Made by a program: the position numbers and the translations under genes
Assembly (NCBI GenBank): GCA_905178155.1
Contig: CAJINV010000003.1
Span: 8,853,226-8,917,225, forward strand
Reading direction: 5' to 3'
Origin: Amoebophrya sp. A120
Lineage: Eukaryota > Protista > Dinoflagellata
DNA length: 64,000 nt
Shown: one piece after another, positions 14,635-64,000 of the stretch
Numbering within the stretch: the first letter of the stretch is position 1
How the letters are laid out: each line of letters opens with the position of its first letter
Notes under the pieces: generated by a model
Told to the model about the DNA's origin: nothing
Seen by the model: the letters and a program-made list of their open reading frames with translations, nothing else
Databases searched by the model: none

Positions 14635-17600
14635 CTACTCGACGAATATAGTAGCGATGACATTTTTTGCGTTCGATACCGGTCGCTGCGGAAGGACGTG
14701 CGCCAGAAGCGAAGGATCCTCGAGCAACACACCTTTGTTTCTGCTCCCGTTCGACGCGGAAGCCAAAGGAAGATCCAGGTTAGAGGAATTCGAACTCCCG
14801 ATGCCTTGTTCCAGCTCGTCTCTGGCTCGGGCTTCTGCATCGTCCGCGCCCTCCTGCGCCTGGTCCTCTCCCATGTGGTCCACCATATCTATGATCGGAG
14901 GTGCAGTTGGATCAAATTCATCGTTCATCATCATCTGCAAGGACAAATAAGTTTCAAGGCCCGGAGCAGAGGGAGACGCTGTTCTTTGTTCCCTTTCCTC
15001 TTCATTTTCGCATTTATTTTCATGATCAGGGTTATTTAGGTTTGGCTTCATTAGAAGAGCATCCAGAAAATTCGAGTCCGCGGGGGCGACTTCGTTACGG
15101 TAGTCGCAGCTGGGGGGCCCGCCTTGATCTGGGCTGTAGCTGTACTGCTGCTGCTTAATGCAACTAGAATTACTGTAGTCCTCCTTGTTACTCCCGGTCG
15201 TGTCCCCTGCAGCTACTAGTCCTAATTGTTCGAAAAAAGCTGTTGTAGTAAGGTTCTCTTCATCTACTTCTACCACTTCCTTAGAACTAGAAGAGTTGTC
15301 ATCCGCTATAACAACTACATCAGAGGCCCCATCAGACTTTTTTTCATCGCGAGATGTTGTACGACTAGCAGCGCTCATCATATCCACATTGTCTTTGTCG
15401 TTGTTCGCTTTGTCGTTCTTCGTAATGCCTCCGATCGCAGGAGGGAGGCCCAATGAGTCTCTCGGGTGACAAGGGGCGTCCTTTTCTTCATCTGGATCTG
15501 CGCCTCGCAATTGCGCCTGTGTCGGGGTGGTCCTCGTTTCCGGAGAGCATTGCAACTTGCAGACAGGTTCTTGCTCTGGGTGCAGCCTAGTGCCCGCAAT
15601 CTGCGACTGCGGCTTCTGTTGCTCTGGCTGATGGTAGTCCTCCTGATCCTTGTGGTGTTTTGCGTAATATTCGAAGATGGTGCTCGTGATGCTCGTAGCT
15701 ACCTTGTTGCGCGCTTGCCCTTTTTGCCCCCGTTCGTCATCTACAGCTTTTGCACGAGAGTCGTGCTTGATAGAACAACTACCGAACAGCTCCGTCTCGT
15801 TTGCAGAACGTTTTTTCCAAAAATTCAACGCCGAAGCAAACGAAGCACTTCCGGCGTTTATTTCACCAGGTGTACTACTAGAGGAGGGCGCACCACTAGC
15901 TTCTACGCTACTAGGCCCTGGGCAGTTCATCTGCCGCGAGATGTACTGCTCACCACTCGACGTCGCGCACGCAGATCTTATTTCCTGCGTGGTTCTTTCA
16001 CCTCCTGTTTTCTGTGCTTCGCTTTCGAGCCACGACTGCGACGCGGCGTTGGAGGAAGTTCTTGTAGAGGCCGCGCACATCGGTTGCTGCTCGAGGACGG
16101 CCTTATCGTCAGCCGTGGCAGTTGTTGTAGACCCCAAAACGCCAGTACTTGCCGGAGGAGCTGCAGCACCAGTATGAACTCCTGCGGGTGTGGTCGTGGA
16201 GTATGCGTTCGCTTCTTCCTTGTTGTTTTCTGCTGCTTTAACTAGGTCCAGCGTCGACACCACCTCTTTGCCGCGTGTGGAGGATGTATCGTGCTGCCCG
16301 TTGATATCCTCCTCGACAACTTGCAGCTGGCGCAAATTGGACGTCGCAAGAATGGCTGGACTCTCGTCCATTCCTTGTTCGTGTACTTCTGTATTATCTG
16401 ATTCGCGGCCAACAATAACCTCATTGGACGCAGTAGGGGACACAGCTTGTTCAGGAAGAGTAACTACCTCGGTCCTTTGAGGCGACTGCGATTCGAGAGA
16501 AGAACACGGCGAAAATGCGACCGAAGGGGTCTCCTCGACCGCATCGTCAGCATCTTCAAGAAAAGTAACTTCTTCCGGTGGTCTAACGCCGTTGGCGAGG
16601 CCAGAGCAGTGCTGATCGTCACCCAAAACAAGTTCGTCGTCTTGGTCTTGGTTTCCCCCGTGCCGCGCCAACGCGTCGTCGGCTTCATCCGGGGGTAGAG
16701 CAGCGGCGCAGATTTCGTGGCTTGTTTGAGAAGAAATCGATTCCTCCATATTCTTCGTCTCGTGGCATGCGACTGCGGCTTGTGCTTGCTCTGCAGTTGT
16801 ACCAGTAAAGGAGAGGGCGTCGTGGTTAACCTCGTGTTGGTTTTTCAGTTCATCCTCCATGTTGTCAACTTGTTCCGCCGTCTGCTGCTCTAGCTCTACG
16901 GGTGGGCTCGGGCTCCCGAGAGCAGTGGATCCAGGTATAATTTGTCCTGGATCGCGATCGGAGCCAGAGGCCAAAATAAATGAGTTCTGTTTCATCCCCG
17001 CAGAAGTCCCTTCCGCAGTATCATCTCCCGACGACTTGCTTGCACAGGTTGTAACCAATGATGTTGATGTGGCCACAGCGGAAGTAGAAGTAGAACTCGA
17101 CGGTACTACAGGCACCGAGACTTGCTTTTCCTCCAATACCTCTTGTTCCATCTTGATCTCTTCTGGAAGTTCAGCATTCGAAGTGACGCCCTTTTGTGCA
17201 GCGGGTTCTTGGTCTTCTTGCGGCGCTTTGTTCGCACAGTCCGCAGCGGCCGCGAAGACGTCCGGCTCACTGCAATGCTGTTCCGACTGCTGGCGCTGAA
17301 TGTTCGCGGGTTCATCCTGCGGTGAGGACGTTTTGCTGGCAGTGGCAATGTCGTCGGCGTCAAGATCATTCGCATCAACTGCGCCGGCATTCGCCTCCTC
17401 CTCCTCGTCTGCTTTCTCGGCAGTTTTTGATATCGCTCGGACTGCAAGCGGACCTTCGATTTCTTCCTCCGCCGGGGATGGAGGCTTACATTGGAAATAA
17501 TCGCGGGTAAGGGGAATCAAAGGCGCAACACGACCCGCACGCCGAACTGTGCTCGCGGTTGATTTTGTCTTCGTCGGCGCAGGCGCTTCCGCTTCAGAGA

Positions 17601-17781
17601 CTCCGTCGTGGTACTCATTATGCGTAGTTGTTTTCAACGACTTGGGTTCCTGGTGGTCAGCCTCTTCTTCAGATGCTTGCAGCTGCCCACTTGCCTCCAT
17701 TGGTGAACACGCCTGCTGCTCGACTATCAAATAAAAACATGACTGGGCATGGACGAATGCAGATGTTATTTGTGAAAACAC
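14635..17781 (-). CDS. Long acidic low-complexity exon (~1000 aa), unknown function
   Basis: Uninterrupted 1048-codon ORF, E/S/A/T-rich; the ends probably run into introns. Confidence 0.7.
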   Translation of the reverse strand: MFSQITSAFVHAQSCFYLIVEQQACSPMEASGQLQASEEEADHQEPKSLKTTTHNEYHDGVSEAEAPAPTKTKSTASTVRRAGRVAPLIPLTRDYFQCKPPSPAEEEIEGPLAVRAISKTAEKADEEEEANAGAVDANDLDADDIATASKTSSPQDEPANIQRQQSEQHCSEPDVFAAAADCANKAPQEDQEPAAQKGVTSNAELPEEIKMEQEVLEEKQVSVPVVPSSSTSTSAVATSTSLVTTCASKSSGDDTAEGTSAGMKQNSFILASGSDRDPGQIIPGSTALGSPSPPVELEQQTAEQVDNMEDELKNQHEVNHDALSFTGTTAEQAQAAVACHETKNMEESISSQTSHEICAAALPPDEADDALARHGGNQDQDDELVLGDDQHCSGLANGVRPPEEVTFLEDADDAVEETPSVAFSPCSSLESQSPQRTEVVTLPEQAVSPTASNEVIVGRESDNTEVHEQGMDESPAILATSNLRQLQVVEEDINGQHDTSSTRGKEVVSTLDLVKAAENNKEEANAYSTTTPAGVHTGAAAPPASTGVLGSTTTATADDKAVLEQQPMCAASTRTSSNAASQSWLESEAQKTGGERTTQEIRSACATSSGEQYISRQMNCPGPSSVEASGAPSSSSTPGEINAGSASFASALNFWKKRSANETELFGSCSIKHDSRAKAVDDERGQKGQARNKVATSITSTIFEYYAKHHKDQEDYHQPEQQKPQSQIAGTRLHPEQEPVCKLQCSPETRTTPTQAQLRGADPDEEKDAPCHPRDSLGLPPAIGGITKNDKANNDKDNVDMMSAASRTTSRDEKKSDGASDVVVIADDNSSSSKEVVEVDEENLTTTAFFEQLGLVAAGDTTGSNKEDYSNSSCIKQQQYSYSPDQGGPPSCDYRNEVAPADSNFLDALLMKPNLNNPDHENKCENEEEREQRTASPSAPGLETYLSLQMMMNDEFDPTAPPIIDMVDHMGEDQAQEGADDAEARARDELEQGIGSSNSSNLDLPLASASNGSRNKGVLLEDPSLLAHVLPQRPVSNAKNVIATIFVE

Positions 17782-17979
17782 GGTAATTTAAATTTTAATT
17801 CTTGGATATCTATAGAGCGACGCATCCATGAAAAAAACTGCCCTTTGTCCCGTCTCTCCGTCTCTTGTAGCCAAAAATCGCACATCTTGCGCTGACCATC
17901 ATCATCATCGCGTAAAGATAATTCTATATACCATTTTGATTTTCGTTTCTGCCCAGTACTTTTTATTTTAGAATCAGCA

Positions 17980-20900
17980 TCAGAATTGTGCATCCTTCCA
18001 GATCCAGTCTAAGACAAGATATTCACAATGCATATTCTTGCCGTCATGTAGTTGCGGTGCGGCAGGCTCGTGCGTAGGACTTTCCCGAGCGCTACTGAGA
18101 ACGAGCGGAATGAGACGCCGCTTGCTGTATAGGCGCCCCCGGCTTCTATGAGACCTCACGGGTCCTCTCCCTCCTGACACTAGCGCCTTCTCGTCCACGT
18201 TGCCGCCTCCCACTTTGTCCTCCCCTGCCCCCGTAGCGTGATTCGTGGTATGATCTTCAGCTGCTTCTCCCGACGGGGACGTGTTCAACTCCGCACATTT
18301 TTCAACATGATTACTGGCTTGTTTTTCTTCGTTTGCGGAAGCTCGCTCCAAGCGCCGCGTGTTCTCTTTCACCTTGCCGGCCTCGATCTCCTCGGCTCTT
18401 TTGTGGAAGTAATATAGCGCTGCTCTCTTTTTCAGTTCGTCGCGGCTGCTGGAAACCACACCAGCGGTCTCTGCTTGTTTTGGGAGTGAGGACGTCGCAG
18501 CGGCGGCTGTAGTTTGTCCCGCAGCAACTACAGGACGGGAGGTAGAAGTGGCATTTTTTTCATCCTCCACAAGATGCGACTTTTTCGACAATAGTACGGG
18601 GACAACGCGGCGCTTGCTGGGAGACCTCCTGGTGATCCTGTGTAGTAGAGCAGGCGGATCATCTCGCTCATTCCTTCGGCGATCATGTTGGGAGGAGGCC
18701 AAGCCCAGAGCCAGCTCGCCGCGCTGAAGCTGATTACGTTTACTCCTACTGCGGCTCCGGCGGTCTGCTCGTTCGCCACGCAATGGCGACGCGGACGCAC
18801 CAGCAGCGCTCACCGCACGATCCCTCATCAGCTGATTGGGGAACTGCAGCCTGTCGCGGCACGACACTGAATCTGCAGAGCGAAGCAGAGGCGGATGGTC
18901 TTGCGGTACTCGACGCTGCTCTGGTTGCTCATCTCGTCTTCTACTAGGAGCAAACGCGCGAACTCGAGGCCGAGGAGGCGAAGCGGCGACTACATTCGTC
19001 CTCCGCAATGTGCTTCTTTTCCTGCTAGTCCGTGTGCGGCTCCTACTCCTTCGACCTTTCTGCTGGTTCAACGTGACGAAATTATTACGAGGACCTCTCA
19101 GCACTGAACTCGAAGCATGCCTTTTCGCACGAGCACTGTCCCTATGGCTACTTCGCTTCCGCGTTGAGCTCCTTTCGATACGACTCTGAGTTCGCCGTGG
19201 TGGATTTTTTGCTGATCCGCTATCTTGGTGTGCTTGCTCGGTGACGCCACGGCATCGGTCAACATGTTGAGGCCTGCTTATTATGCGCTGTGAACTTGAT
19301 CCACGGGAAGGAGGCAACGCGTCCCGGTCACGATCCCGCGCAAGTCGTCGCAGGTCCGAAAACAACGCGCCAGCCAAGGAAGTGGGTGGAGGTGCGGAGG
19401 GTTCCTTGCGGCGAGACAAAGCAGGTTTTTCGTTTTTCGTGGGAGACGATCTTCCTGGATGGCCGATGTTTACATCCTGTGCCTGTCGTGGTTTCCGCCT
19501 GTCATGATCTTCATCTTCGGGCTTGCTTACAACGAACTTGAGGCTTGCTGATGAACTACTTGATACGCTTTCGCTTTCACTTTCATCTTCGACCGCCGAG
19601 CATGCTCCTAGCCACTCGGTCGGAGCTGGGCCGACACGGATTTTGCTAGGGGCTCTGGGTCTTGTTGTCGCCATCAATTTTACGGAACCAGATGCAGAGC
19701 TAGCAGCTCGCTGCTCTTGGTCGCATGTACTGTCCTTGGCCGCAGTACTTGCTGATCTTTCTGGCGCTGCGTGCTGCTGGTGCAGCCCTCGATCTGTAGT
19801 ACCTCCCGGCATGGCAACGTGCAGGGGGTCATTTGCGTTGCCTGCAAATCTACTTTTCGGTCGTGGCTCAGTTGTCGAGTGAAATTCGAATCGGGCCGTG
19901 CTCTCGCCGGGACAACGTTGCACCAGTCGCACTTTGCTGGGTTCTCGTAATGTTCTTGTCACTCCTGTCGTCGTACTTTCAGAAGTATATCGTGTCGTCA
20001 TAGCTTTTGTCTTCTTGCCTACTTCATCATCTAGCGCTTTTTCCTGAACTGCGCTCGGACCACGCCAGTCGCTCGGTGCCGGACCGGTGTTGCGAGCGGA
20101 ACAAGGGTGCAAGCTGCTCGCCGCCTTCGTTTGCTCCCTCTGACAAGTGGATGGCGATGGACATGGACGAGTTGCGCCACTATAATGCGCTGCAAGTACT
20201 TCCTGTTGCGAAAGCGGTTTTGGACACAACTGCCGGCCTGAAGGTGGACAAGAAACCACGGCGGAAGAAGGGCGGACAGTGCCGGTAGTTGTTGTTCTGG
20301 CACGTTCGCCTTCGGCCCTGCTGCTTTTGTTCGTTGTGTCATTTACAGAGACTTGCGCTCTGCTTTCCCGCACTGCTGCGGCTTTTGAGAAAGCGCCATC
20401 TTTAAGAGGAGTAGGAGCTTTCGAGACGCTGCCAGATGAAGCTTTCGAAAAACATGTCGGTTCGGTCACAGAAATCGCTTTTGGAGCCGCGGGCACAGCC
20501 CCAACACGAACAGCCACGGGCACGAGGTGGACGTTACTCGAATTATTAAACGTCGGCGCAGGCCCTACCGCACCACCTGCACTCGCACTGGTCGTAAACG
20601 ACGGGGCTTGAAGATGTGCTACGGTCGTCTCCTCTGTTTCTTGGCCAGCCGATGCAGTCGCAGTGAAACGGCCTCGGCCTTCCTCTTTGTGCGATGTGCA
20701 TTCGTCCGGAACCCCCCGTTTCGGCGAAGTGGCTGCGCCCATCGACTTGGATTCGCCGGAAGTGGCTGCGCCCATCGACTTGGATTCGCCCTTGGGCGAA
20801 GGTGAAGATTCTGTGGCAGCCACGGGCTTACGTTCAGCCAGAACATCATGCAGTACCGGTTGTCGTGGTCTATCTACACCTGCTCCGCACGGCTCGTGCT

Positions 20901-22661
20901 CGTCCACCACGTCCTCCGACACCCTGCTAGTATATGTATCTGCGCTGCTGTAGGTCTTCACCCGCCCCGTTCCTCCGATTCCGAATTTGAGAGCGCGGAG
21001 ATGAGTCTTCGAGGCCTGGGATGAAGATACGTTCTTGCATGATACGAGCTTAAGGACCTCTTCTGCTCCTGTACTATGGCTCCTCGTCACTTCATCTGTG
21101 CTGGGCGGTGCCTCTGCGCCCGAAAACAACGTAGTTGTCTGATTGTTCAGGCGATTGGTTTTGGTCTTCTCGTCGAGTAAAGTGGTAGGCGCCGCCCCGT
21201 TGCTACCTGTGCTAACAGGCGTACTCAGGGGCAGGGGAAGTAGAAAGGGACGACTGGTGTCCTCGTCCTCGTCGTTGTTCTGCTGCAATTTTTCGAGCGC
21301 CAGCTCATCCATCGCCTGCAGATTTAGAAGCTCGACTTTTTCGTCTTGGTCTTGTTTCTTAAGCGCCGAAGCCGATGTTGATGTAGGTGTTATATTATCC
21401 ACTGCCTGTTCATGATCTTCATCGTCTTTTTTATCCTTAATATCCTTCGGCTTTGCTTGTTCTCTTCTTGCAGGAGCTGCAACAGATTTATTTTCGTGAC
21501 AGCACTCACCTTCTTCTTCATTTTCGTGCGGCTTCAGCGAAGCCTCACACTGTTCGTGTTCCCGTTTTTCAGACGCATTCTGCTGCTCGTGCTGGGACTC
21601 TTTCTCTTTCCGCACATCAACATCGAGCTGGTCGTCACCAGCATAGGTCCGCAGCTGCTTCATATCTGGCTGCGCTCCTAGTCCCACACCAACAGCAAGC
21701 GGCTCCGCCTTCCGCGTCGTATTCAACCCGACCTCCGATGTGGGCTTTTTTTCACCTACAACTGAAGGCTGCGACGTAGGCTTTTGCCCTTCTGGCACAT
21801 GATTGTTCGGAAGAAGAACTACGCTCGTGGTCGTGGCATCGAAGGCAAATATGTTTTGGCCTGTAAACTTGTGACACAAGTGTGTGAGTAATAAGCATCT
21901 CCCTGCAATAGGTGGCCAAGCATGACAAGTTTTTGAGCTTCTGCGTGTTGCGTATTCCGCATGGCGGGCTTCATTTTTGCATCATGACAGGCAAGGAGAT
22001 TATTTCGTGCCTACGCATCACACAGGTAAAAAAAAAATCATGCCAGACAAGCATGAGAAATCATGCTCTCTACTTCCAGACCCAAATATATTTGCACTGC
22101 ATAAGCACCGGTGGAAGACGATGACGTCGAGAAGCGACTGACGTCGACGTACATAGATTTCTGCCTGTTCCCCTTTTTCCCAGTTGATCCGCACGACGAG
22201 CTTGACGAAGTACTTCTTTTCAAGTGTGGTTTTCCTTTCATGTTGTAGCTGTCGTTGCTCTTGCTGTTGCCCTCGCCCTTGGACCAGCAGGATTTTTTTT
22301 GGATTCTTCCGTGCTGGTGTCCGTCGTCGTACCACATGAAATTCTTTCCAGCAACGACACCGAATGCCGAATGTGCCAAATTGCTGCTGCTTTTGCCTGC
22401 TGGAAGGTAACTATTTTGTAGCTCTTGCTGAGCGCGCTGATATTGATCGTACCCTGTTTCGCGATCCCATTCGGACATAAAAGTAGCGTCATCAATCTGA
22501 ACATCTGGCCCGGTCATAACTTCTTGGTTAGATCCTGTATGTCGGTTCCAGGGCGCAGGATCATTTCCGGTGACGGGACCACAAGTGCGAGCGGGAACGC
22601 CTGCCGACTTCCCTTTCTCATTCTGGGTGGAGGTCGCCGACATGTTTATTGAAGAGCTCAA
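17980..22661 (-). CDS. Long low-complexity, RS-rich protein exons (22661-22108 joined to 21838-~18000)
   Basis: 1299-codon ORF with RSRSR tracts. It joins in frame to the 22038-22661 ORF (STGA-TTTSVV) once the 269-bp TIR element is removed. Confidence 0.7.
21836..22107 (-). mobile_element. Introner-like element, family A (~269 bp)
   Basis: Degenerate TIR gcaaatatgttttggcc / cagacccaaatatatttgc, similar to the 32159-32429 element; 3-bp direct repeat; internal gcatgacaag; excision restores frame. Confidence 0.65.
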
Positions 22662-23755
22662 TCACGGCCAGAGGTCCTCCGTCGCTAGCTTCGTGAAAAT
22701 CACCGATGGATGTTACCAGCGTACGCCTTGGCTGGTGTTCTGTTGCTAGCGTACGCGGATATTGCCAGCGTATGCTTTGGCTGGTGTTCGTGTTGATGAT
22801 CCACCTGGCGCTGCTGTGGGCTGCCGATTCGGTCTCGTGGGAGCGTTCTATCTTTTGCTTTTCCCATGCAGATGAAAATTACTCTGCCCGCGCCCTCCTT
22901 GTTTTTCAGCCCGAAATAAGATTGCCATCACCGAAGCCTCGAGCGCCGAAAGCTGCGAAGTAAACTATAAACGCGAATGAATCAATATACAGAAAATAGA
23001 AATACTTAATGCGGTCCTGGGTTATCATCTGTAAAGATGTGTGTGAGAGCCGAGCTGTAGCTGTACACTAAGCGCTAAGAGCGCAATAGCGACAAGCTAC
23101 TTGTATCTGTAAAAAAGCGACTAGTAATTATCTACTTCAGGGTAGTTGTAAGCACTCTAATCACATTCGATTCGTACTCAAAAAAATATCTAGTTTTAGG
23201 GGGTACAACATAACAAGAAAAGAGATATTTCTGGCCAATCAACGCCATCAGTCAACGCCCACATCGAAACAACGCCAGCGTAAAGCGCTACAACTACAAG
23301 TGCAGTCCACGAGTATGATGCTGTAAGTTGTTTAGGCGGGGCAGCTGGTTTGTGTTTTTCTTTGTCTGCTTGATGGGTCTAATATTTCTCCCACTTTCTG
23401 GATCAACGTATTGAAATGCAGGATGGTTCTCCACCTCCAATCCCGTCTTGATAAGGAGCTCGTCCTGCAATCAAAGATGCTATAAAACACGGGGACGGCG
23501 GCCACTAAAAGAAGGGTATCGGTATTATATATATTTTTTTTTGCCAGCCGATAGAGTTATGATGAGGGATATTTGGGGTTATGTCGAAAATACAAATCCA
23601 AGAACTACAGCAGTCTACTGCTCGTACTCTAACTCTACCAAATAAATGTGTCGTCATTGATGTTCGTAGCCTGGAAGAGAGATTGGATGAGTTAAAAAGG
23701 CATGAATTACATCTTCACGTATGAACATGATGCAGCAGAATTACGTCGATAAGCA

Positions 23756-26700
23756 GTACCTGGTGGCTTCGTGGGATCGAAAACTTCTGGCGGAGCTGTG
23801 GGATCACTTTTCACCCCTTCCGGAGGCGCCCCCGGGGCTTGCCGCCGGCGCCTTCCGGGTGTTGCGTTTTCTGTCCGGCCGCCGCCTTGCCGGCCGCGCG
23901 GGGTCCGGCAAGCTTGCGCGGCCGCGAAAGCATACCCCGGAGGGGGCCCTCGTGGAGTCGGCCAACATTTTGCCAAGAGGCGGCGGGCCCCCTTCTGGTT
24001 GTGTGGAGGATCGCCCCGGCCCCCCAAGCCACACCCCACGCCCCGAGGCTTGGCGGAGCTGCGCTCGTGGCGCGTCTGAAAGGGAGCGGGCGCTGTGCCC
24101 CCTGCGTGCAAGGGCCTCTCAGGGGCGCGTGCTCTAGCGCGCCCGGCATTGGGGCCAAAGGGCAAGGAACGCAATGCGCCCAATGCCGTTACGGGCCAAC
24201 GACCTGCCTCGTAATTTCGCGAACCCCCCGCCCGGGCCCAGACGAATGACAGGGCCCCGGACGAAGTGGGCCCGTCGGGCCTTTTTCTTCCCCGCAATGC
24301 CAACACCACGCCGGAGGGGGGGCGCCGCCGCCATTTCTGCACAGCGGCAAGGCGGGCGGGCAACGTCCGGCCGGCGCGATCGGGCAGGCCACTAATGGGC
24401 CGCCACCGCTCGCGCGCCGCGCTGGCCCGTCTAGGGCCTTGGGGCACGCACTTGGCCCCGCCTGTCCGCCGGCGCAAAGAAACAAAATCCGCGAGGCGCA
24501 ACAGAAGGCACGAAGGCGCGCGCCCGCCCTTTCCCTGCGTTGGCGAGGGCGGGGGCTTGGCGGCCCCGGCGCGTATCTTTGGCGGCGCCGGCCTTGTTGC
24601 GGGGCCTACCGCCCTCTCCCGTGCTTTGCTTGAGGCTGTTGGCCTACCATCCTGCCGGGCGAGGGTGTGGCGGCCTCACCTCTTGGCGCGCGACCGGGGT
24701 GCCGGCTTGCGCGAGATCTGCCGCAGCCGGCGGCGCCGTGGTGACTGAACTCGCACAGGCGCCGCGCTTGCAATTGGCCGCGGGCTCACAGAGTGTGCCT
24801 ATGCGCTCGCGCACAGGAGGGGCACATCGGCAAAGCCTTCGCCACGGAGGCGAGCGCGCCGAATCGGTGGGAAACCAAAAACGCGGCCCAATGTTGCGCG
24901 GCCTCGTCGGGATTTTCCCAACTTGTGCCCGGCCTCTATTTGCTCTAAGTGTGCCCGTGGGGTGGGGCATGCGCATCACCAACACACAGGGGCGCGCCCC
25001 TCGGTGCATTTTGGGAGGCCGCGGCGTCTCGCTAACAGCGAATGCCACGCGGCGGGCCCTCGACGAAGTGGCTCCCGGAGGAGCTTGACGTGGCCAGCCA
25101 CCAAGCTGACAGACAAAGGCCCTGTAGGAATGGGACGCGATGTCTTCGAGTGTCGCCCAAGTGCTCGGAACCCCACTCGGGATGCGAAAAAAAACGCATA
25201 TCAAAATTCTCAGCGTACTTGAAAAAAGCGTCGTTGACGCCGCCATACAGTACCTGGTGGCTTCGTGGGATCGAAAACTTCTGGCGGAGCTGTGGGATCG
25301 AAAGGTACCTCCGCACTAGGGTGTCGAAAGGTGCCAAAGTCTCTCCGCAGCGACCAGTCGTCGCTTCTGAGTGATATTGCCACCCATGATAGAGCAAGCT
25401 CCCCACAGAATCGGCTTCCTGGCCTCCCTCCGACCTAGAGCAGACGCGGCGGCCGCGGCCCTCTAGCGTCTACGCTTGCCGTCTGGCGCACGGGTGTCGG
25501 ACTGACTCCCCGGCTGCGCTGTGCGCTACTTGTGCTGAGAGTGAGGGCCACTCAGCCTGTCCACGCTGCGCCTCAACCAGAAGCACGCAATACATTTTCT
25601 CCCGAACCGCGCGCGTGCGCGAGGATTCACGGACAAGCGACCCCGGTCTCAGCCGTCGCGAGTACGTGGGAGCCGACCCTTGTCGGCCGAAGCGGCTGCG
25701 TCGCAGCTATGTAGATTTTCTGGGCGTTACGCCTCGCGCAGTGATCTGCGCTTGCACACTTCGTGCTCGGTCCCCAGTCGAGGATCTGCACTCGCTCCTC
25801 AGCTCGGAAAGCGGATGCAAGCTGGCCGCGGCAGTACCCGCCAGCACTTGGCTTTTCAAACTTACTACTGCGCTCCTCTGGCTCTGTTCCGCGCTTGCTG
25901 AAGACGTCAAGAGGAAGAAGCGCAAACTTCGATCGCGCGATCGAGTCGGGCGGCGTTTAGCCGAGACGGGGCACTTGCCCATTTTTTTAGCCAAGCAGAT
26001 ACACCGGGGGCATTGAGGATGAGGGGCCCGGCCCTCGCATACCTATCAAATTACCTACCCTTATCTTCTCTCTGCCTGGACTCACAGGCTCGCCAGCGGT
26101 TCGAAGATAGTGAACATTTATTTTTTCATCTTCTATCTAGCGGATACTTGTTTTACATGTCAACCACGTACAGGCGGAGCTTCTGGAGGCTAGTTATGTC
26201 GATAAGCCGTACCTGGTGGCTTCGTGGGATCGAAAACTTCTGGCGGAGCTGTGGGATCGAAAGGTACCTGAGGGGGTCCTCAGACCCCCCCTCTATACTA
26301 ACGCCCAACAAGACCTAGGTTTTTTGCAGTCCCCACGCTATGGTCCACCCAAGGGGGGTCCCGAGACCCCCACCAATAACCCCCCTGGATGGGCCGGAAG
26401 CTTTTGCCGTGTCTTTCGAATTCGCAGAAAACAGAGCGGCGGCCCTTCAAAGAAAGCACACCCCAGAGCATCCGGAAGAGCGCGAGAGCGTGGCGCCCGG
26501 ACTGCAGACCGATACCCATTCCAAGCTTCGCCCAGGTGGCTTTTTTGCATGCGCCGCTGCCCCGGTCAAGGGCTTGGTGCGTGTGAATCCTTTCCCGGAA
26601 GCGTAACTGCTTCCAACTAAAGGACGGCCTTACGTACGGTACCTGCATGAAGGCGGCGGAGTTTGTCTACCGGCCTGGTCCGTCGGGCCCCGGGCCTGGC

Positions 26701-27222
26701 CAGGGGAATATGAAAACAGAGCCGAAGGGTGTTCCGCGAAAGGAAAGGAAGCGGCTCGACACATGGAGCCGATCACAAAAACACACACAAGCCCCACCCG
26801 CTTTGGCAGGTGGGCGCGAGATAGGCGTTGCCTAGCAGATTCCGTCCTTGCACAGTGCGGGCCACCCGCTGGCTTGGCCTAGAGGGCCAACATGGCGGGT
26901 TGCCTGTGTCTCGGTCCTGGGGGCTCTCGAGCCTGTGGGGCGCCCCTTACAAAACGGCTGGCAGGCTACGAGGTGGATCCCGCATCTGGCATCGACCCAA
27001 GTTGTGCGATGGCGGGCTACTTGCAGTTTGCGTCTGCCTTCGCTATAATATGACCAACTCGGCTATGTGCGTGACCTACTTGCAGTAGGTCGCTTCGCGA
27101 AGGTAGATAACAATTTTGAAAGTTTTCTATGGATTTAATCGTTGGGCGCGTTATATAACAAGTACCTGGTGGCTTCGTGGGATCGAAAACTTCTGGCGGA
27201 GCTGTGGGATCGAAAGGTACCT
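23756..27222 (-). repeat. Array of four identical 50-61 bp repeats with long, largely unrelated GC-rich spacers
   Basis: GTACCTGGTGGCTTCGTGGGATCGAAAACTTCTGGCGGAGCTGTGGGATC(GAAAGGTACCT) at 23756-23805 (truncated), 25250-25310, 26209-26269 and 27162-27222. Spacers are 1444, 898 and 892 bp. Confidence 0.95.
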
Positions 27223-29303
27223 GCGGAAACGAGGATAAAGGTCAATTTGCGTGGCACGCTGCCACTTTGGGAACCAACAGAAAAGGCTCTGCTTCTCCTT
27301 CTAGTGCTATTGATAATTGATGTTCGTTCTCCTCGACTGTCGTCCTTGCTACGGACCATACACGAAAACTAAACTATTCGTCTGAGATTACAATGACAAG
27401 GAGCGGCTTGGTCTCAATTCTTCATTATCGCTTAGCGCGTTATTCACAGATACATACTAGGACGACTAAATATTGATCCTACTCTGTATGGAGCACCAAG
27501 CAGAAGCACATATTCGGTCAAGTTTGATCATCAAGTCATTCATGATCTTGCTCCTCATCCGTGTAGTTCTTTTTTATTTCATCATGTAATATGTACTACA
27601 TTTAATGCTACAGGGGCAAATGACTCGTGGGAATTCAGCGCCTCACAAGAGGAAGAGCCGCCCAAGCTTACAATTCTAGGGAAGAGTTTAGTGATAGTGT
27701 CCTCTTAATCTTCTCTGTCCGCTTTTTTGCACTTTTTCTCATTTCGGATCTCCGCGTAAAGTAGCTGTCGCTGTGAAGTCGAAGTACTATGTGTATTCGA
27801 ATAGGCATCTGCGATAATCAGAAATACAGGAGATGGAGAAAGCGGCAATGCATAACCCTGCTCGTTTCGAGAAAAACCGTATGAGAAAAGAAGACTCAGG
27901 CCATGCTCCTCGGATGATTTCACAGCGCAACACCTGCGGCAAGTGCATCCGCTACAACGAGCTGCATGGAGACATGCCGGAGCGTAAGCAAGTGGAAGAT
28001 GACTACTGCCGAAACAAGCTGTACCTCCTGTGCGCTAGCCGTGCCCCCGGCCGACGAACTCGACGAAGATGCGCCTCGACCTGTCATCAAGCCTGTTGCT
28101 AAATATGAAGGAGTAAGAAACAAGCGGCCCTATTTGAAACCCGAATGAGAAGTAGGATCATGACGTAATGCAGCGATTGCAATATACCCATCTTTATAAA
28201 TCATGACATCAGGTCAATGTCGTGAGATGAGAGCGAGAGGTGCTACTCACTGCGTAAGAACTTAGAACGCTTTCCTACTCACTGCGTAAGAACGCTTTCA
28301 CTTGCAATGAATTCAAATTCAATGCTCCAGCAAATGGGCAATCGCGCAGCTACAAGTTGAACGACAAATCAGAATCACACGCTCTCTCAACCACGAGGGA
28401 GAAGTACTACAAAAAACATGAAAATCAAGCTTTTTCGTGGTGTTTCTGCTGGTGCAGAAGTATTTAATTGATTGACAGTGGACTTCTCACGGACCAAGGA
28501 CTATCCGGCTTCCTCGTCCGATAATGCAAGGTTCTGCGCCACGTTTTCTGCCGCCGCTAGAACCGGGGCGCGACTTATGAAAGAAAAATCTGATAGTACT
28601 GAAGTCTGCGATGGTTGTATGTTCTTGTGCTTGACAATTTAGTAGCAAGCTTGTCCTTGTATGTGCGAAATCGTTTGAAAAATGCAAATCGAGCTGGCAC
28701 CTCCTGCTCCGTACGCGTACTACACTTTGTCACTCTAGAAGAAGATTGCCGGACTTCATCGTAACAATTTTTCTACGAATACCCATGGCACTTCCAAAGT
28801 CCATGACTTCACTTAGATCCCATGCGCCAGGCTGCTCGGTATTCGGGTCCCATGCTCCCGTTGCGGCGCCAGTGCCGTCATCTCCCGAACTGTCTTGTGA
28901 AGCGCAAAACTCGCCCCGGGAACCTCACACCACTGCATGCACTAGCCTCATCACGCAGGACTCGGCAGCAACAGCTGCAGCAGCACTGCCTTAACTTTAT
29001 GACGTATTCAAGGCGGCCGCGTACGCGTTCCCCTTCCCTGCCACTTCATACTGATATTGGCGCTCCAGCTCCTGACACCCAAATACAAATACGGCAGTAG
29101 CTACGCGTGTCGTCACAATGGTGATGGTCTCAGGCCCAGGCGGGATCACTTACCACATAAGTCTTCATCTTGAAAGTTCTAGTTATGTTCTTGCTTCTGT
29201 CTCATTTCGAAACCTCTGAGGTATGATGCCATTGTGAATTTATAATGATGTAAACGCTCCGTGATCAAAAAGATCGACTTGCTCCAACTCCTGCAGCTGC
29301 CAT

Positions 29304-30060
29304 TTATGATTTGCTTGAGTGTACTAGGCGTGAGCACCAGGAACGAGCTGCTTCAAGGGATAGGTCCGCGGAAGACCAGGACTGTCCAGAGGACCCCGCC
29401 GGCGTCTCGGGTGCCCAACTTCCTCCGCCTCCGAGCCAGTCGTGCAACTCTTGCTCCGAAACCGCTTCATTGCTTCCGGAGCCCGTACCTCCTGCTGCCA
29501 CATCGTTCTCCGTAGCCGCGGCGCCCTCGTCTAGCATATCGCCTCCGCCCCTTCTGCTCTCTGTGAAGGGATTGTTTCCAGCAACCAAAGACGACGACGC
29601 GGCCAGAAAATCGTCCACAACTGGCGACGCCGGGGCCGGATCTGCGACATCTTGCATCGCCGCTCCATCCCGCTCGTCGACATCTTCATCGCTGTCACTG
29701 AGAGTTCTTGTTCTTGACATAGATATAGAAGAAAAAAAAAAAGATATAGCTGAAAAAGACATGACGCGGCCCTCAACTTCTTGCTCATCTAGTTCATCAT
29801 CATCATCATCATCACTGAGCTCGAAAGCAAGCATTCTTCTAGTACTAGTTTGTTCTTTAAAAAATATCATGGTCGTGATCATTTTTACAACTGCAAATCA
29901 GGAGCATTACGGTTTAGCTGCTGCAGGCGGTGCCGACGGATCAAAAGCGTCGCCCTCGTCGGCCATCGCGAGACGCTGGCACTGGTGGCTCTCCGCGCGT
30001 GACAAGGAAGCCCCACGACAAATTTTAAGCAGCGCGGGCTCGGAGAAGCTCGGGCTCGGC
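29304..30060 (-). CDS. Acidic low-complexity exons, unknown protein
   Basis: Minus-strand frames read ...MADEGDAFDPSAPPAAAKP|gtaatg and FELSDDDDDDELDEQEVEG...WAPETPAG; coding-like composition and a GT donor near 29910. Confidence 0.45.
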
Positions 30061-31929: not shown

Positions 31930-34900
31930 TCAGTAGCCGCGGACCGCTTTTAATTCTTCAGACTCCGTCGTGTAGAAGGGTATGGATGACTCCAATACGG
32001 CATCCACCTTAGCGAGTAGTGCTGCTGGAATGAAGTGCTCGATATCGAACATGTTCTTCAAGACGTTGTCGCTATGCAGCTCGACTCCAGTCTCCTTGCC
32101 CACGTCCGTCTGCATCATCTGCGCACGCATGTTTGGCTCCGAGATTTGCACTACCTCGTACGTTATCAAATGCAAAAATGTCTGGGTCTGGAAGAGTGTA
32201 AACTTGTCATGCAGGTTCTCCATGAGCCTTGAGGTCTGGAATGCGGGACCTAGCATGGCAGAGTCTGTGAGGTCTCTTTCATGCCTATCCTGCATGAGAA
32301 ACTCCCTCCCAACTTGGTCGAAAGTGGGCAGCTTTTGGCTCTCATGCAACACAGATTTTTGCATGATTCGGATTTAGCATGACAAGCTGCAATCTTCCAG
32401 ACCCAGACATTTTTGCAATCCATATACGTCGGCCCGAGACTCAAAATCTGAATGTGCTTTCCGTCGGTACTATGAAAGTAGACCACTCGTCTCCATTTCC
32501 CTAATTTGAAGCAAAACACCAAAGAGGAAATCACCTAGAGAAAACGTGACACCGGGACCAGCAAAAGGAACAAAAGTGTTAACATATTCATCTCGATGCG
32601 GCCACAGCTGCCTTTGCAAGACAAATAAACTACTCATGGAGTGTAGTGTTGTTTCCCTCGGCTTCCAAGACTTGTCGCGCAAACGGTACTACAGACCCAA
32701 GAAACGCAGAGACAGGGTTTTGCATGACAAATCCGGGGAATGGGCAGTTCGAGTTTTTATGCACTGTCATACATACTATCCTTGCCCGATTCGGCGAAAG
32801 GCTTGAACTCCCACATGTGTTTCGGATAAATCTCACTTCCTGGCGCGCGCACCTGTGTTCAGTTTGCAACTAAAGAGGCATGCTTTGGCCTGCTAATATT
32901 GTCGATATCAAGCAACTCAACTACTTCTTGAGCAGGAATGTTTTTTATCAACCCTTTCGCAAGAGCTACAACTCACGCTACTGCTATCTTCCCAGCTGTG
33001 TGCTCACGCCCATGCGTGACCACGAGTCTAAGTAATTCATACAAAAGTATATACTTATTTTTTGAACTTTTAGGTAGCATCCTCCAGTTCCAGTCATTCT
33101 TCTTAGGGTCGTATTCTTTGACTTTTCACCATTCCTTTTCCTCCAGTTCCAGTCATTCAGAGTTGGCGAAGAATAATAAACATGAAGCAGTAGCAATTTG
33201 CGCATGAGTTGTGACAAACAATTTCTATACCTTGACAGGATCCAATGTTTCGCTTCCCTTCGCTGCCTCTTCTATTTTTTTCAAGTGCTTTGCGAGGATG
33301 AGTTTCATATTCATGTGGATCATCTGTGCGTGAATCCAGGCTCCGAACGCCATCCGCTCTCCGTTCAAGTGGCGCTCGCGCCCGGTACAATCACCCATGA
33401 CCCACATATGCGGAAACTTGGCCGACAACTGGTTGGTTGAGAGGCAGTTGATGCTGTGGTCTGCGGGGTTGTAGATTCCGGGGTCGACTTTTTTCAGGGA
33501 TTCTCCGAGGATGGATTTGTTCAATTCTAAGGAGTACCCAGTGCACCTGCGTGTTCAAGAATTGATGTATGCAGAACAAGAAAAAAACTCATGTTCTTGA
33601 GCGTCTACCTCTAGCTCGACGTCGCATCCGCAATCGCGTACTATACATGCACGCACTACTTTCCTCTCTAGGCAGTTCTTGTATTGATTTACGTATTAGT
33701 TTACATTTCCAGACGGGAGGACCACGTGAGAAAAAGCACCGCAGATTCGTGCGACCATGCAAACTTTCGGATTAAATTTGCTTGCACGAACCGCATCTAC
33801 GTACAGTGCCACTGCCTCCACTGCAGATTGAAGACAAAGAATAACGCGCGAACATAGCTCTTCATTACTCATCAGCAACTTCTAACTTCTACTTACATCG
33901 GTACCAGAACTCGCGGTCTTTGCTGGGATCAAAAGGCACGGATAGACCCGACTGGCACACGTAGCACTTTTTCACGGGGTCGAAGTGCGTGACGCGCTCG
34001 TTGAAAATGATTTTGGCGCCCAGCTTCTCCAGCGTGTTCTTCGCGTGGTCACCAGTGGCGGGGTGTGCGCGGCTTACCAGCTTGGAGCCAGAATGCACCA
34101 GCACGACCCTCTTGTTCGGAAATGCTGTGATCAGTTCTCCGCAGAGCTCGGATCCAACAACACCACCACCGATCACAAGTAGTTGCTCGCACTTTGCCAC
34201 TTCTCCGTGCAGGTAGAGCATCTGTTTCTTGCGGTAGTCCAGACTGGCGTTATCCGTCTTGATGTAGCTCTTGTACACACTTCCGGTCGCGATCACGCAG
34301 TAATCGAAGGGCACCACTCGCTCTCCGTCATTGATCACCACGTGGTCCGCCTCTATCTTGGTTGCTCTGCCCACGACCACCTGCCCCTGCTGACCCATGT
34401 AATCGCTGTGCCTGCAGAGCGTGTTTCCCATCTGCTTTTCCGGCTCGCAAACCATGCGCAGCACGGCCATGGTGTTCTCTGCGTAGTCCTTCAGATCGAT
34501 CAGCGTCACCGCTACGCGCTCGTCTGTCAAGTTGCTCCACAGTCGCCGCGATCCTGCGCAAAAGTATCGCACTTCTCATGCTAGGTAACAATTAAAATTG
34601 ATAGCCGCCTCGGCGGGGGTAGTGAGGTGCCGGCTAAGAACTTACTCTTGCCTAATATTGCGGCTGCTGCACTAAAGTGAAGTGCTGCTCTTTTTCGTGT
34701 ACACCATACGCTCGCGCGTAACATTACTCCCCATGTTGTTCCAGCTCCGCTGTGTCGTTTTTTTCAAGCCCCACCTTATTTGATTGCAAACCACCGGCCA
34801 CCTGCTACAAGCTTCATTTTATCCATGTGCGAAAACACTCTCGACTGCCACAAAAGTTGCGGTTGCTTTGCGCGGAAGGTGTCAAAAAAGCTTCCAGATT

Positions 34901-37900
34901 AAATGAGCATTATACAGCTTTGTTTACTACATACAAATAGTTTGCACCACTTGGGCGCGGGGGTAGAAACAAATGGGCGGGAAGTTTCTTGGTCCAGGAG
35001 TTGCTGCCGAAGTTTGTGGGAAGCAGCTGTTGGTAAAAGTGGCTGCGTCTTGGTTGAAATGAACTCAAAAAAGGAAAAGATGCGCGTCTTTGCGTGAACG
35101 TAGCAAAAGGTGCTGCGTGAAGACAGCAAAAGCTGACTGCTTCATATCAAAAAGCGCAAGAAGGTCGCTATATTTTGATGTTGCACGATATGCAAACTAT
35201 TAACGATGATACCACTTACAATTTAAAAACCGCGCCACTTCGTTCTTTCGCAAACACCACTACTGCCCGCCTCGGCTACGCTGATCCTAGTAAAACTTCT
35301 GCCCAGCAGGCTTTTCCACGCACCTGTCAACCAACTTCCCGGCCCCGAAGACACACTTCTATACGAACTTCTCGATGATCTGACGATCTTGGAGATGCTC
35401 GCTCTGAAGTTTGTGCGATGTTGGCGGCGAACTGAGCCGCGCAAAAGTCCGCGACATGTCGAGCCTCTAATAAATCGTTGCAGCAATCGTTTCAATTCCC
35501 ACGACGAGTGCGATACTTTTGAACTGGATAGGAACAGAACAGCGCCTCCCAGACCTCCACCGACTATAACAATCTGGATCGGGGCCCGGCGCAGGCGCAC
35601 CAAGCGGGCGTGGCTACTTTCGTCCTCGTGCTTCTGTTTCGACTTGCTCGCGAGCAGATTCAACGACCGCAGGGGGGAAACGCGGTGCGTCATTTTCAAA
35701 ATGTCCAGCGCCTTCTGGAGCCGCTTCTCAGCTTGCCGCTTTTCGGCCTGAAATTCCGCAAGCTCGGGAAGGATGAATCTCTCGTACACATTGTGCTTCA
35801 CGTTTTCCAGGCGCGCGGCGTCCATGATGTTTTTGGCATCATCTTCACTACCTCGAGCCTCGGGAGCAGCACCACCAGCTGCCTTCAGATATTCCTTCCG
35901 GAGTTTCGCCTTCTCCTGTCCAAGCTCTTCGAACAGGGGCGTAAGATACTTTTCCACGAGCTGGCTTTCGAGCCTCTTCAACGCCTGCAGAAACTGGACA
36001 TCCGCTTCCTCACAGGCTTCGGCGGCATTTTGCTGTAGGATATGAACTGCAAAAGTATCGTACTCGTAGTATTGCAACACAAATTACCTCAGCATGACAA
36101 AAAGATTTTGTCATGCTGATTTAGCTAGAAAATGAAATTTCTTTTGCATGACTGCGATTAGTACGAGTACGATGCTTTTGCACAGGATATAGGAGCAGGC
36201 CCCGCAATTCGCGCGCCAGATTTGCATCAGCCACCACCTTGTCGACCGTGAGCGACCGCGCCCAGTCCCGCTCCGCCCGTTTTTCCATCAAGTCCACTTT
36301 GTTACCCAGTTCGATTTTCTCTACCTTTTTCGGGTCCGTGACGATGCAATCGCCGGCGACTTTCAGGAGCCGCTCAGCGTCCGCTGCGCCCAGCTCCTCC
36401 TGCACCTGACCGGGTAGCGAGGCCGTGGAGGAACTCTTTTTCATTTTTGGAGCCTGGAAAACGCAGATGTCGTCGCTAGATTTTTCCTTCAACAGGAACG
36501 TTTTTTCTTGCTTTCGTATGCAATACAAATTTCCCGTACATGTACAACATGCATCACAAATTTTACCAGTTTGGTTCGTAAAAATTGTCATGCTAAGTTA
36601 GGATCGAAGCCAAGTTTTGTCATGCAGAGACCGCATCTGTACGTGTACGGAAAATTTACTGTGGCTATTTCGCGGGACGGTTAGAAACTCCGACTTGCCG
36701 TCCACGACGGTCTTCAGGCCGAACGCGAACGCCCCTTCGCGCAAAAACTCGATAAACTCCTCCTCCTCCTCCTCGTCGTCATCGAAATTCGCGGAAACCA
36801 CCGAATCCTTGTCGTCCACGTCAAACTCCGCCCCGTGACACTCGCGGATGCGGCGGCGCAACTGCACCAGCGTGGTCGCCTCCCCGCACATAACAAATCC
36901 GCTGTTGGACTTGTACTCCGCAATGCGGTCGAAGGGCGCCTCTTTGTCACGAACGTGAATGAAAAAGACCCGATCTCCAGCGCTCGGCTTCATCTCGCTA
37001 GAGGAAGCAACGCTAACATTGTCGTCCTCTGGTTGCGCAAAGTGGGCGACCAGTGCCTTCAGGTTCTCGAAGCCGGTAGCGCGGAAAAGCGCATCGAGCT
37101 TGAAAACGCTAGTGTTGTTTTCCGGATCCGCAACCATCACGCGGCGCAGCCGCGGCAGCATCGGTTCGCCCTCTAGGAACTCCCGCCCAAAGCTGCTGTG
37201 CTGCCACTCGAGCGAAAGCCGGGTGTTCACATTTTGTGCCGGGATGGTGCCGCCACTTAGGTTCATGTGCCCGCCGCCGGCGACCTGCATGGTCATCGCC
37301 GTACCCTGCGGCTTTCGCCCCAGCACACTAGGCTCCTTGTGGAAGGTCTGCTCCACCGCGCCCTCAAACAGCACGTAGCGCACCATGTTGTCGCGGGGAA
37401 AGTGATCCACGTCAGAAAAAAAACCATCTTCCCCATGATCCATTTTATTTTCCATGACAAACCCTGCGTTTGGTGCATGTTTTGCATGGCAAGTTGGATG
37501 TTGGGGATTGGTCAACATCTTTTTGGTTGATAGAAGTACCGGCCCCACCACTGGCGCCCGTCCGGGTTTTCGATGGCCATGGCGGGCGCATTCTTTTTGT
37601 CTTCGAGCTGTGCAGCCTGGGAAATCAGCTCGATTTGGGACCGGATCTCCGTGTTCAGGCGCCTGATGTACGCAACGTTTTCAGACATGGAACCGTAATA
37701 CTTGCTCGGCGATGCAAACAAGGCCATGAAAGGGTTGAAGCTGCGCTTCGGTTTCTTTTTTGTCTCCCCATCCGCGAGGTAGCCGAGACGGTCGCGAAGG
37801 TCCTGCAACTTTTTCTCCAGCCCTCGGAGGGAAGAGGCCAGTGTCTGCGAAGCAGGGAGGCCATGGACGATGTCAATCGCAGCCTGTGCCAGAAGTCGGG

Positions 37901-54623: not shown

Positions 54624-54655
<32 letters not shown>

Positions 54656-62921: not shown

Positions 62922-63185
62922 AGTGCTCCGCCCTCAACAGAAAACGACAGTTCTATGGAAGTGCTGCAAAGTTCCGACTACGCGCCAATCATGAAATTGA
63001 AAACGCTTTCGGGCATAGACGTTGGAGGACGATACTGGCTCGGCAACAACGGCGGAGAACGCAGCCCGTACTAAATGCTCGAGCAGCACGCAAGTCCCAA
63101 CGGAGCAGACTTCTGCCGCTGAAAAGAAATCTATATCAATAGCAAGTGCGAAAACATATAAAAGACAAGTATCCGCTATTGCATT

Positions 63186-63960: not shown

Positions 63961-64000
63961 ATTAGTTATTGTTATTACTTATTGCTATTACTTAGTCATT

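What the first reader, a model, noticed from the sequence alone, without database searches (positions are those of the whole stretch)
23756..27222. Cassette-like array: identical 61-bp repeats with kb-scale spacers, each repeat a splice-bounded PTAPP-encoding unit
Seen: four identical copies (the first truncated to 50 bp) separated by 1444, 898 and 892 bp of largely unrelated GC-rich DNA, with no copy elsewhere in the window. Each full copy has a terminal GTACCT direct repeat. On the gene-bearing minus strand it reads AG|GTA CCT TTC GAT CCC ACA GCT CCG CCA GAA GTT TTC GAT CCC ACG AAG CCA CCA G|gtac = VPFDPTAPPEVFDPTKPP. Outside one A/K codon, its internal repeat differs only at synonymous third positions (ACA/ACG, CCG/CCA), a coding signature. 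An internal cccacag| acceptor defines a frame-preserving 36-nt micro-exon kept in all four copies. Copies 1 and 3 share diverged flank (tta.gtcgataagc.gtac). Spacer 3 has a subterminal inverted repeat (taacgcccaac / gttgggcgcgtta). Inference, three models: (a) a site-specific insertion hotspot in which each incoming element regenerates the target (integron/CRISPR-like growth that also multiplies a micro-exon); (b) homogenised micro-exons giving tunable motif copy number; (c) a 55-nt GT-AG mini-introner.
Basis: partly seen in the sequence, partly recalled or inferred. Interest (0 to 1): 0.85.

Follow-up and report, generated by a model that had tools for sequence, protein, structure and literature searches.

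The report
Exon copied by repeated DNA insertions
In a marine parasitic dinoflagellate, one short, likely protein-coding piece of a gene sits in four identical copies separated by three unrelated pieces of mobile DNA, likely because each insertion re-copied its landing site and would be spliced out of the RNA without harm.

Summary
The array is real. Four identical copies (50, 61, 61, 61 bp) are separated by 1444, 898 and 892 bp. The window encodes a protein that its source names Amoebophrya sp. A120. In a DNA-like public run the flanks and spacers have equal depth (41-47), three contig ends fall exactly where this array predicts, and depth leaves no room for further copies of the repeat. The repeat is likely a 55-nt exon with AG|GTAC at both ends; its FDP[ST]APP motif recurs twice nearby, once in a spliced exon. 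The spacers are pieces of unrelated multicopy families whose other copies go on into other sequence, not the repeat. The duplication differs per spacer (52, about 77, 62-63 bp), so this is no fixed recombination site. Best reading: three successive insertions, each with a long target duplication, tolerated because insert plus extra copy would splice out as a GT-AG intron. No RNA covers the repeat, so splicing is untested. One contig shows a one-copy form but cannot be told from a graph artefact. Integron/CRISPR-like and mini-introner readings are not supported.

The parts
27162..27222 (-). Copy 4: the likely original 55-nt exon (27220-27166) with its AG|GTAC ends; normal pyrimidine-rich acceptor upstream
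   Evidence: exon status inferred, no RNA cover
26270..27161 (.). Spacer 3: insert with terminal hairpin (26270-26293) and subterminal inverted repeat (26294-26309 / 27141-27157); reads GT...AG on the minus strand; duplication 62-63 bp
   Evidence: relatives over about 26270-26800 at 2-3 times single depth
26209..26269 (-). Copy 3, identical 61 bp
26195..26208 (+). Duplicated piece of the left flank (homolog of 23742-23755, 2 mismatches): part of the about 77-bp duplication of spacer 2
25311..26208 (.). Spacer 2: 83 nt without seen relatives, then a multicopy-family piece 25394-26194 that ends in CTAG before a T; GT...AG on the minus strand
   Evidence: depth 180-590, loose ends at 25394 and 26194
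25250..25310 (-). Copy 2, identical 61 bp
23806..25249 (.). Spacer 1: 68.5% GC; right part 24729-25247 multicopy and ending in ATA; both outer parts lie on one related contig; interior single-copy; duplication 52 bp (23754-23805 / 25248-25299)
23756..23805 (-). Copy 1, cut to 50 bp; keeps the internal acceptor of a possible 36-nt in-frame micro-exon (23795-23760) and the original donor
23505..23759 (-). Likely original downstream intron, GT...AG, starting GTAC-N4-TAT
   Evidence: sequence; a contig of the RNA-like run X4 ends at 23505, one base past the AG acceptor
28025..28080 (-). Likely upstream exon; its donor is in phase 0, matching the FDPTAPP frame of the repeat
   Evidence: inferred from canonical sites
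29911..29966 (-). Likely first exon of the host gene, with an independent FDPSAPP motif
   Evidence: inferred
14890..14920 (-). Independent FDPTAPP motif in an annotated, spliced exon further down the same strand

Best explanation
Four identical copies of a likely 55-nt exon are separated by three unrelated pieces of multicopy DNA, and the array likely grew by three successive insertions, each of which re-copied 52-77 bp of its landing site. Inferred mechanism: one true end of a mobile element was joined 1-16 bases from the exon's donor site, and the other side was finished by repair synthesis on the far side of the exon (one-ended integration or template switching), helped by the GTACCT repeat at both exon ends. 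Because the exon begins and ends with AG|GTAC, an insert plus one extra copy would be removed as an ordinary GT-AG intron, so the mRNA would be unchanged and the site survives repeated hits. Flank remnants suggest growth at the left end (spacer 2 before spacer 1). Shown: copies, spacers, duplication lengths, multicopy relatives, equal depth. Inferred: exon status, order, enzyme, splicing.
For: Duplication lengths differ per spacer: 52, about 77 with 2 mismatches, 62-63 bp, whereas ordinary TAT...ATA elements in the window have 5-bp duplications (6 found against 0-1 in each of 10 shuffles). Spacer relatives exist and stop at the donor-side junction: a relative of spacer 1 matches to 25247 and runs on into other sequence in X4 and X8; two X1 contigs leave spacer 2 at 26194 into different flanks; on the other side a relative runs on 255 nt or more beyond 25394. 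All 4 donor-side junctions have TAT at +7 to +9 (3 independent) against 0 of 13 AGGTAC sites outside the repeat. FDP[ST]APP occurs at 2 further places on the same strand with other codons, 0 times in 200 shuffles; one lies in P0001 and in a spliced X4 contig. Canonical sites put the repeat in that frame. X1 depth: left flank 43.2, spacers 44.3, 46.6, 44.2, right flank 40.9; contig ends 23776, 25281 and 27190 equal the predicted k=31 breaks. A small case of the same geometry lies at 33080-33158: a 20-bp duplication round 39 nt, 37 of them identical to 52460-52496.
Against: No RNA read or contig covers any copy, so neither exon status nor neutral splicing is shown. No empty ortholog was seen: the DNA behind P0002 was not found. 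Only 5 of 8 junctions appear in the displayed rows (82 rows hidden); X1's left contig ends one base past the predicted break and no contig with the window's own letters shows at 25176-25181, 25858-25864 or 25973-25982, so the right junctions of spacers 1 and 2 are unconfirmed. The copies have 0 differences while the duplicated flank has 2 in about 16 nt, a hint of constraint or conversion that a neutral model does not need (hand estimate p about 0.06). Break points cluster tightly (left -1, -2, -16; right +50, +61, +62), which also fits a site-preferring enzyme. One related contig holds both outer parts of spacer 1, so spacer 1 may be a whole element. The acceptor before copy 2 is a weak GAG.
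Confidence: 0.5

Rival explanations
1. Each spacer is a non-autonomous element moved by a dedicated enzyme that makes long staggered cuts or overruns its ends (target-primed reverse transcription, or a rolling-circle HUH transposase); the genome would hold a whole class of long-duplication introners.
For: Fixed right end plus broken left end plus variable duplication is the pattern of target-primed insertion (recalled). Spacer 3 has HLE2-like ends; spacer 2 ends in CTAG at an A|T-like site (definitions). Non-LTR, LTR and TIR-derived introners are reported for this organism.
Against: Helitrons make no target duplication. No tail at the junctions; no Pfam hit in 12 spacer-overlapping frames. The three spacers are unrelated. 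No other kb-scale insert with an exact duplication over 15 bp in the window outside satellites.
Confidence: 0.25
2. The copies are kept identical because they work: optional 36-nt in-frame micro-exons or alternative identical exons tune a proline-rich motif.
For: The 36-nt unit is phase-symmetric and in frame, and survives in the truncated copy. No difference among copies against 2 in the duplicated flank. AGGT dual sites give variable unit numbers in polyubiquitin (abstract).
Against: The 36-nt form adds no PTAP; 55+55 gives a frameshift and early stop. Identical exons give no diversity. The 19 nt before the internal acceptor are identical too, as recent copying would leave them.
Confidence: 0.1
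3. A site-specific, polarised cassette array (integron- or CRISPR-like) in which a recombinase adds foreign segments at a fixed repeat.
For: Flank remnants fit growth at one end (chance about 1 in 6 for three events). The repeat has a palindromic end. One X3 contig has the one-copy form.
Against: Repeat ends vary between events; relatives of the spacers are not bounded by the repeat; no recombinase found; spacers are at full single-copy depth in X1, so the one-copy form is not common there.
Confidence: 0.05
4. Assembly artefact: segments or haplotypes were chained through a shared 61-bp sequence.
For: k=31 contigs cannot order the spacers; X3 joins 23754 to 27161; 3 of 8 junctions are not displayed.
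Against: Equal depth of flanks and spacers, three exact predicted contig ends, and repeat depth that fits four copies. The published assembly of the named organism was checked for chimeras with long reads (passages). In X3 51 shared letters exceed k, cover is patchy and indel-rich, so a false join is expected when spacer ends drop out.
Confidence: 0.07
5. The 55-nt unit is itself a small GT-AG introner.
For: It reads GT...AG between AGGTAC direct repeats.
Against: Not dispersed (0 matches); no TAT...ATA ends; it encodes a motif found in two other exons.
Confidence: 0.03

Closest known systems
Amoebophrya introner elements (Farhat et al. 2021, PMC7789003; sections 10-11 and passages read)
   Same: Same genus; repeated mobile elements that form introns; TAT-type ends occur at the donor-side junctions and in 5-bp-duplication elements elsewhere in the window.
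   Different: Described direct repeats are 3-5 nt and both ends carry an inverted repeat; here duplications are 52-77 bp, take in a whole exon, and only spacer 3 has an end-to-end inverted repeat.
Intron gain at AGGT sites by transposon insertion, tandem genomic duplication or break repair (review PMC3443670, passages; Hellsten 2011 PMC3265369, abstract)
   Same: A duplicated AGGT supplies donor and acceptor, so the new DNA can be spliced out without changing the protein.
   Different: Here insertion and duplication are combined, the duplicated unit is an exon with AGGT at both ends, and it happened three times at one site with unrelated inserts.
Dinoflagellate introner-like elements and identically repeated intron boundaries (10.1101/2020.10.14.339549, PMC5032977; passages)
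   Same: Splice sites recruited from the target duplication; the repeat is left once in the mRNA.
   Different: Those repeats are 2-11 nt in the passages read.
Long target duplications of HERV-K HML-2 (PMC5488345; abstract and discussion)
   Same: Insertions flanked by 111-250 bp duplications, with a possible return to the empty form by recombination between them.
   Different: Single retroviral insertions, not serial hits by unrelated elements on a small exon.
Helitron-like elements HLE1/HLE2 (PMC11417382, PMC4067079; passages)
   Same: Spacer 3: subterminal inverted repeats plus terminal stem-loop; spacer 2: CTAG end.
   Different: HLEs insert at A|T or T|T without duplication; no RepHel partner was seen.
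Dual-specific AGGT sites in polyubiquitin UBC (PMC10809524; abstract)
   Same: AGGT sites at the borders of repeated units allow variable unit number.
   Different: UBC units are in-frame tandem coding repeats without inserted mobile DNA; the 55-nt unit is not a multiple of three.

Membership tests
Amoebophrya introner elements (spacers) | Repeated elsewhere in the genome | tested here: met
   Relatives at 85-95% identity for parts of all three spacers
Amoebophrya introner elements (spacers) | 8-20 nt inverted repeat joining both intron ends | tested here: not met
   1 of 3 spacers (spacer 3, p about 0.02); spacers 1 and 2 p 0.82 and 0.67
Amoebophrya introner elements (spacers) | 3-5 nt direct repeat at the boundaries | tested here: not met
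   Duplications of 52-77 bp
Amoebophrya introner elements (spacers) | Spliced out of the transcript | tested here: inconclusive
   No RNA cover of the array
Mini-introner (55-nt unit) | Dispersed copies | tested here: not met
   Depth leaves no room beyond four copies
Intron gain by duplication of an AGGT site | AGGT on both sides of the new DNA | tested here: met
   Spacers 2 and 3 lie between AG|GTAC sites; spacer 1 plus copy 1 ends in CAG|GTAC
Intron gain by duplication of an AGGT site | Precise removal shown in cDNA; empty ortholog | tested here: inconclusive
   No RNA cover; DNA of the close relative P0002 not found
HLE2 / Helentron (spacer 3) | Short subterminal inverted repeats and a stem-loop beyond the second repeat | tested here: met
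   (uncorrected p about 0.02 and 0.008)
HLE2 / Helentron (spacer 3) | Insertion at T|T without duplication | tested here: not met
   Flanked by a 62-63 bp duplication
HLE2 / Helentron (spacer 3) | Autonomous RepHel partner with the same ends | not testable with these tools
   No whole genome held
HLE1 / Helitron (spacer 2) | Hairpin followed by CTRR at the 3' end | tested here: inconclusive
   Relatives end at CTAG but no significant hairpin (p 0.49)
Non-LTR retrotransposon or SINE | Variable duplication, fixed 3' end, truncated 5' end (recalled) | tested here: inconclusive
   Fits spacer 2 and partly spacer 1; ends of the families not mapped
Non-LTR retrotransposon or SINE | 3' tail or reverse transcriptase frame (recalled) | tested here: not met
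   No tail at junctions; no Pfam hit
Integron / CRISPR-like cassette array | Fixed repeat ends at every unit (recalled) | tested here: not met
   50 against 61 bp; 1, 2 or 16 nt of flank copied
Integron / CRISPR-like cassette array | Linked recombinase or integrase (recalled) | tested here: inconclusive
   None in 32 window frames scanned of 118 listed; genes are split by introns; rest of genome not held
Integron / CRISPR-like cassette array | Excised circles or spacer turnover between strains | tested here: inconclusive
   One X3 contig with the one-copy form, unresolvable at k=31

The most novel reading that the evidence does not exclude
A eukaryotic splice-neutral docking site: an exon with AG|GTAC at both ends is targeted again and again by an enzyme that copies the whole exon at each insertion, so the locus grows from one end as an ordered record of mobile elements, is cleared from the RNA by stepwise splicing, and has siblings across the genome.
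Probability: 0.1. Interest if true: 0.85.

Novelty: new variant of a known kind. Interest (0 to 1): 0.5.

Why it matters
How new introns arise is an open question, and this lineage is one of the most active intron makers known. If right, the locus shows a route in which an insertion copies a whole small exon and is still spliced out, three times at one place. It gives a direct test: long cDNA reads tell whether AG|GT-ended exons act as safe landing sites, and a genome scan for inserts with 20-80 bp duplications tells whether this is a missed class of introner or a local repair accident.

Tried and rejected
tRNA-end or primer-binding-site reading of the repeat: no tRNA gene and no Rfam match in the array (5 weak matches elsewhere). 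Exact 26-nt pattern: 0 matches in metagenome and viral contigs. RNA raw reads X5-X7 did not cover the gene region, only a repeat near 32164-32424; no RNA holder was listed: no evidence either way. Protein searches for an annotated model holding the repeat exon found none: ORF 29304-29783 against 280-2000 aa, ORF 17980-21981 against 733-2333 aa; the representative search gave only P0002. DNA around P0002 was not found. No whole genome was held, so family ends and other arrays could not be mapped. Insertion with a 4-6 bp duplication into a pre-existing 55-nt tandem repeat was rejected: no terminal inverted repeats next to such a duplication, and copy 3 carries flank DNA. Recombination between related elements on both sides of the exon was rejected: spacer left ends do not resemble the right flank. 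Short likeness of spacer 2's ends to the repeat is weak (1.8% and 4.4% of 2116 control windows score as well, 8 ends tested). Earlier findings by place and sequence were empty.

Full report
Observation. The four copies, their identity, the truncation of copy 1, the spacer lengths and GC content, the terminal GTACCT repeat, the shared flank of copies 1 and 3 and the inverted repeat of spacer 3 are all in the sequence. On the minus strand the 61 bp are a 55-nt unit plus a 6-nt direct repeat AGGTAC, so both ends read AG|GTAC. No other copy is in the window.

Organism. A search with the frame 14635-17787 gave one protein, P0001, that its sources name Amoebophrya sp. A120; six longer blocks and two short ones map to 16371-7845 on the minus strand at 97-100%, a parasitic dinoflagellate of the Syndiniales. 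The window fits: contigs of the RNA-like run X4 are spliced at non-canonical sites (14385/14680, 17719/18035), and six TAT...ATA elements with 5-bp duplications are present against 0-1 in each of 10 shuffles (one of the six is weak). TAT-N7-AAA inverted repeats with 3-5 nt direct repeats are what PMC7789003 describes for introners (sections 10-11).

Is the array real? In the DNA-like run X1 the unique parts have equal depth: left flank 43.2, spacers 44.3, 46.6 and 44.2, right flank 40.9. A k=31 graph of the window predicts contig ends at 23776, 25281 and 27190, and X1's contigs end exactly there; the fourth displayed end is 23784 against 23783 predicted. The depth left over in the bin of copy 4 is about 18,500 against about 23,700 expected if all five repeat unitigs of a four-copy array were laid there, so there is no room for further genomic copies. 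Against: only 5 of 8 junctions are in the displayed rows (82 rows hidden); X1 shows no contig with the window's own letters in stretches where high-copy relatives lie; and short contigs cannot order the spacers. One X3 contig joins 23754 to 27161, the one-copy form, with no mismatch on the right side. The shared letters (51) exceed k, X3 is shallow, patchy and indel-rich, and X1 shows no drop of spacer depth, so this may be a false join through the collapsed repeat. It is also notable that X3 covers both outer flanks next to the repeat and none of the six spacer-side ends. I count it as inconclusive.

The repeat is likely an exon. FDP[ST]APP occurs at two further places on the same strand (near 29945 and 14916) with other codons and 0 times in 200 shuffles. 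The second lies in P0001 and in a spliced X4 contig. A chain of canonical sites from 29966 through 28080-28025 enters copy 4 in the motif frame and leaves it into an open frame at 23504 (hand-picked sites, an inference); an X4 contig ends at 23505, at that acceptor. No RNA covers the copies. Keeping two or three 55-nt copies shifts the frame to early stops; four full copies would restore it, but copy 1 is cut; one full copy plus 36-nt units stays in frame but adds no PTAP. That P[TS]AP binds ESCRT-I is recalled, not tested.

The spacers are mobile DNA. Spacer 1: relatives over 24729-25247 at 5-9 times single depth; one ends at 25247, after ATA, and goes on into other sequence in X4 and X8; one X1 contig holds both 23809-23860 and a piece from 25196. 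Spacer 2: relatives over 25394-26194 at 4-13 times single depth; two contigs leave at 26194, after CTAGT, into different flanks, and what follows in the window is the duplicated left flank; a relative runs on 255 nt or more beyond 25394. Spacer 3: relatives over its left part; ends like HLE2 elements. None of the displayed loose ends is the repeat. No Pfam domain in 12 frames overlapping the spacers.

Geometry. Read as insert plus duplication, spacer 1 has 52 bp, spacer 2 about 77 bp with 2 mismatches, spacer 3 62-63 bp. Copy 3 and copy 2 both carry left-flank bases, so each was next to the left flank when hit: spacer 2 came before spacer 1; that spacer 3 came first is the simplest order but is not shown. 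All four donor-side junctions have TAT at +7 to +9, against 0 of 13 AGGTAC sites outside the repeat, which suggests that element ends were joined at or near an old element end in the original intron. A small insert of the same geometry lies at 33080-33158. An unchecked earlier finding in an unrelated bacterial genome reports a similar geometry; it is a lead only.

Mechanism. I commit to serial insertion with long duplication, most likely one-ended integration finished by repair, kept because AG|GTAC at both exon ends makes insert plus extra copy a GT-AG intron (0.5). The main rival is a dedicated long-stagger or rolling-circle enzyme (0.25); the data here separate the two poorly, and the shared part (exon plus long-duplication inserts) is firmer, about 0.75. 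Functional micro-exons (0.1), artefact (0.07), cassette array (0.05) and mini-introner (0.03) follow.

Comparison. Splice sites drawn from a duplicated AGGT are known from transposon insertion, tandem duplication and break repair (PMC3443670, passages; PMC3265369, abstract) and from dinoflagellate elements with short duplications (passages). Long duplications are known for HML-2 (abstract and discussion). PMC12130899 (passages) lists diverse introner origins in this organism. PMC10809524 was seen as abstract. Nine literature searches (listings only) showed no description of this locus or of serial whole-exon duplication by unrelated inserts; the library is partial, and the supplements of PMC7789003 and PMC12130899, which catalogue introner families, were not read and may bear on this.

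Verdict. A real, unusual locus: a new variant of intron gain by insertion at AGGT sites, not a recombination cassette. Interest 0.5.

Noticed in passing
window 33080-33158 and 52460-52496: An exact 20-bp direct repeat flanks 39 nt, 37 of which are identical to a site 19 kb away: a small copied insert with duplication; direction unknown.
   Followed up: partly
window 10407-11681, 32164-32424, 36041-36189, 61080-61195, 62271-62593: TAT...ATA elements with inverted repeats and 5-bp duplications, typical introners; the first lies in an intron of P0001 and holds internal repeats.
   Followed up: partly
window 14386-14679 and 17720-18034: Introns with non-canonical ends removed in an X4 contig; that contig runs to 18506, so the gene extends beyond the annotated start of P0001 at 16371.
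   Followed up: partly
window 7845-29966, minus strand: One very long or several adjacent low-complexity genes with FDP[ST]APP motifs and acidic-aromatic short motifs near the end of P0001; no Pfam hit. A role in membrane traffic is a guess from recalled motifs.
   Followed up: no
window 55471-61013: About 1.4 kb duplicated at a distance of 4.1 kb (90-97% identical) around a GC-rich palindromic satellite at 56900-59300.
   Followed up: no
window 54544-54988 and 55192-55257: Long A-rich tract next to a 66-nt inverted repeat.
   Followed up: no
window 45850-46663: Element with 35-nt inverted ends holding an 11-nt satellite in both orientations.
   Followed up: no
window 63130-63995: 13-nt satellite in two blocks.
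   Followed up: no
window 33889-34575 and 47670-48746, minus strand: Pyridine nucleotide-disulphide oxidoreductase domain and thrombospondin type 1 domain.
   Followed up: no
P0002 against window 29304-29897: A 95-97% identical protein with in-frame indels from another 7053-nt contig: a close relative of this locus exists and could show the empty site.
   Followed up: partly
window 23806-23815, 33121-33130, 52481-52490: The first 10 bases of spacer 1 also occur in the 37-nt copied insert; may be chance.
   Followed up: no
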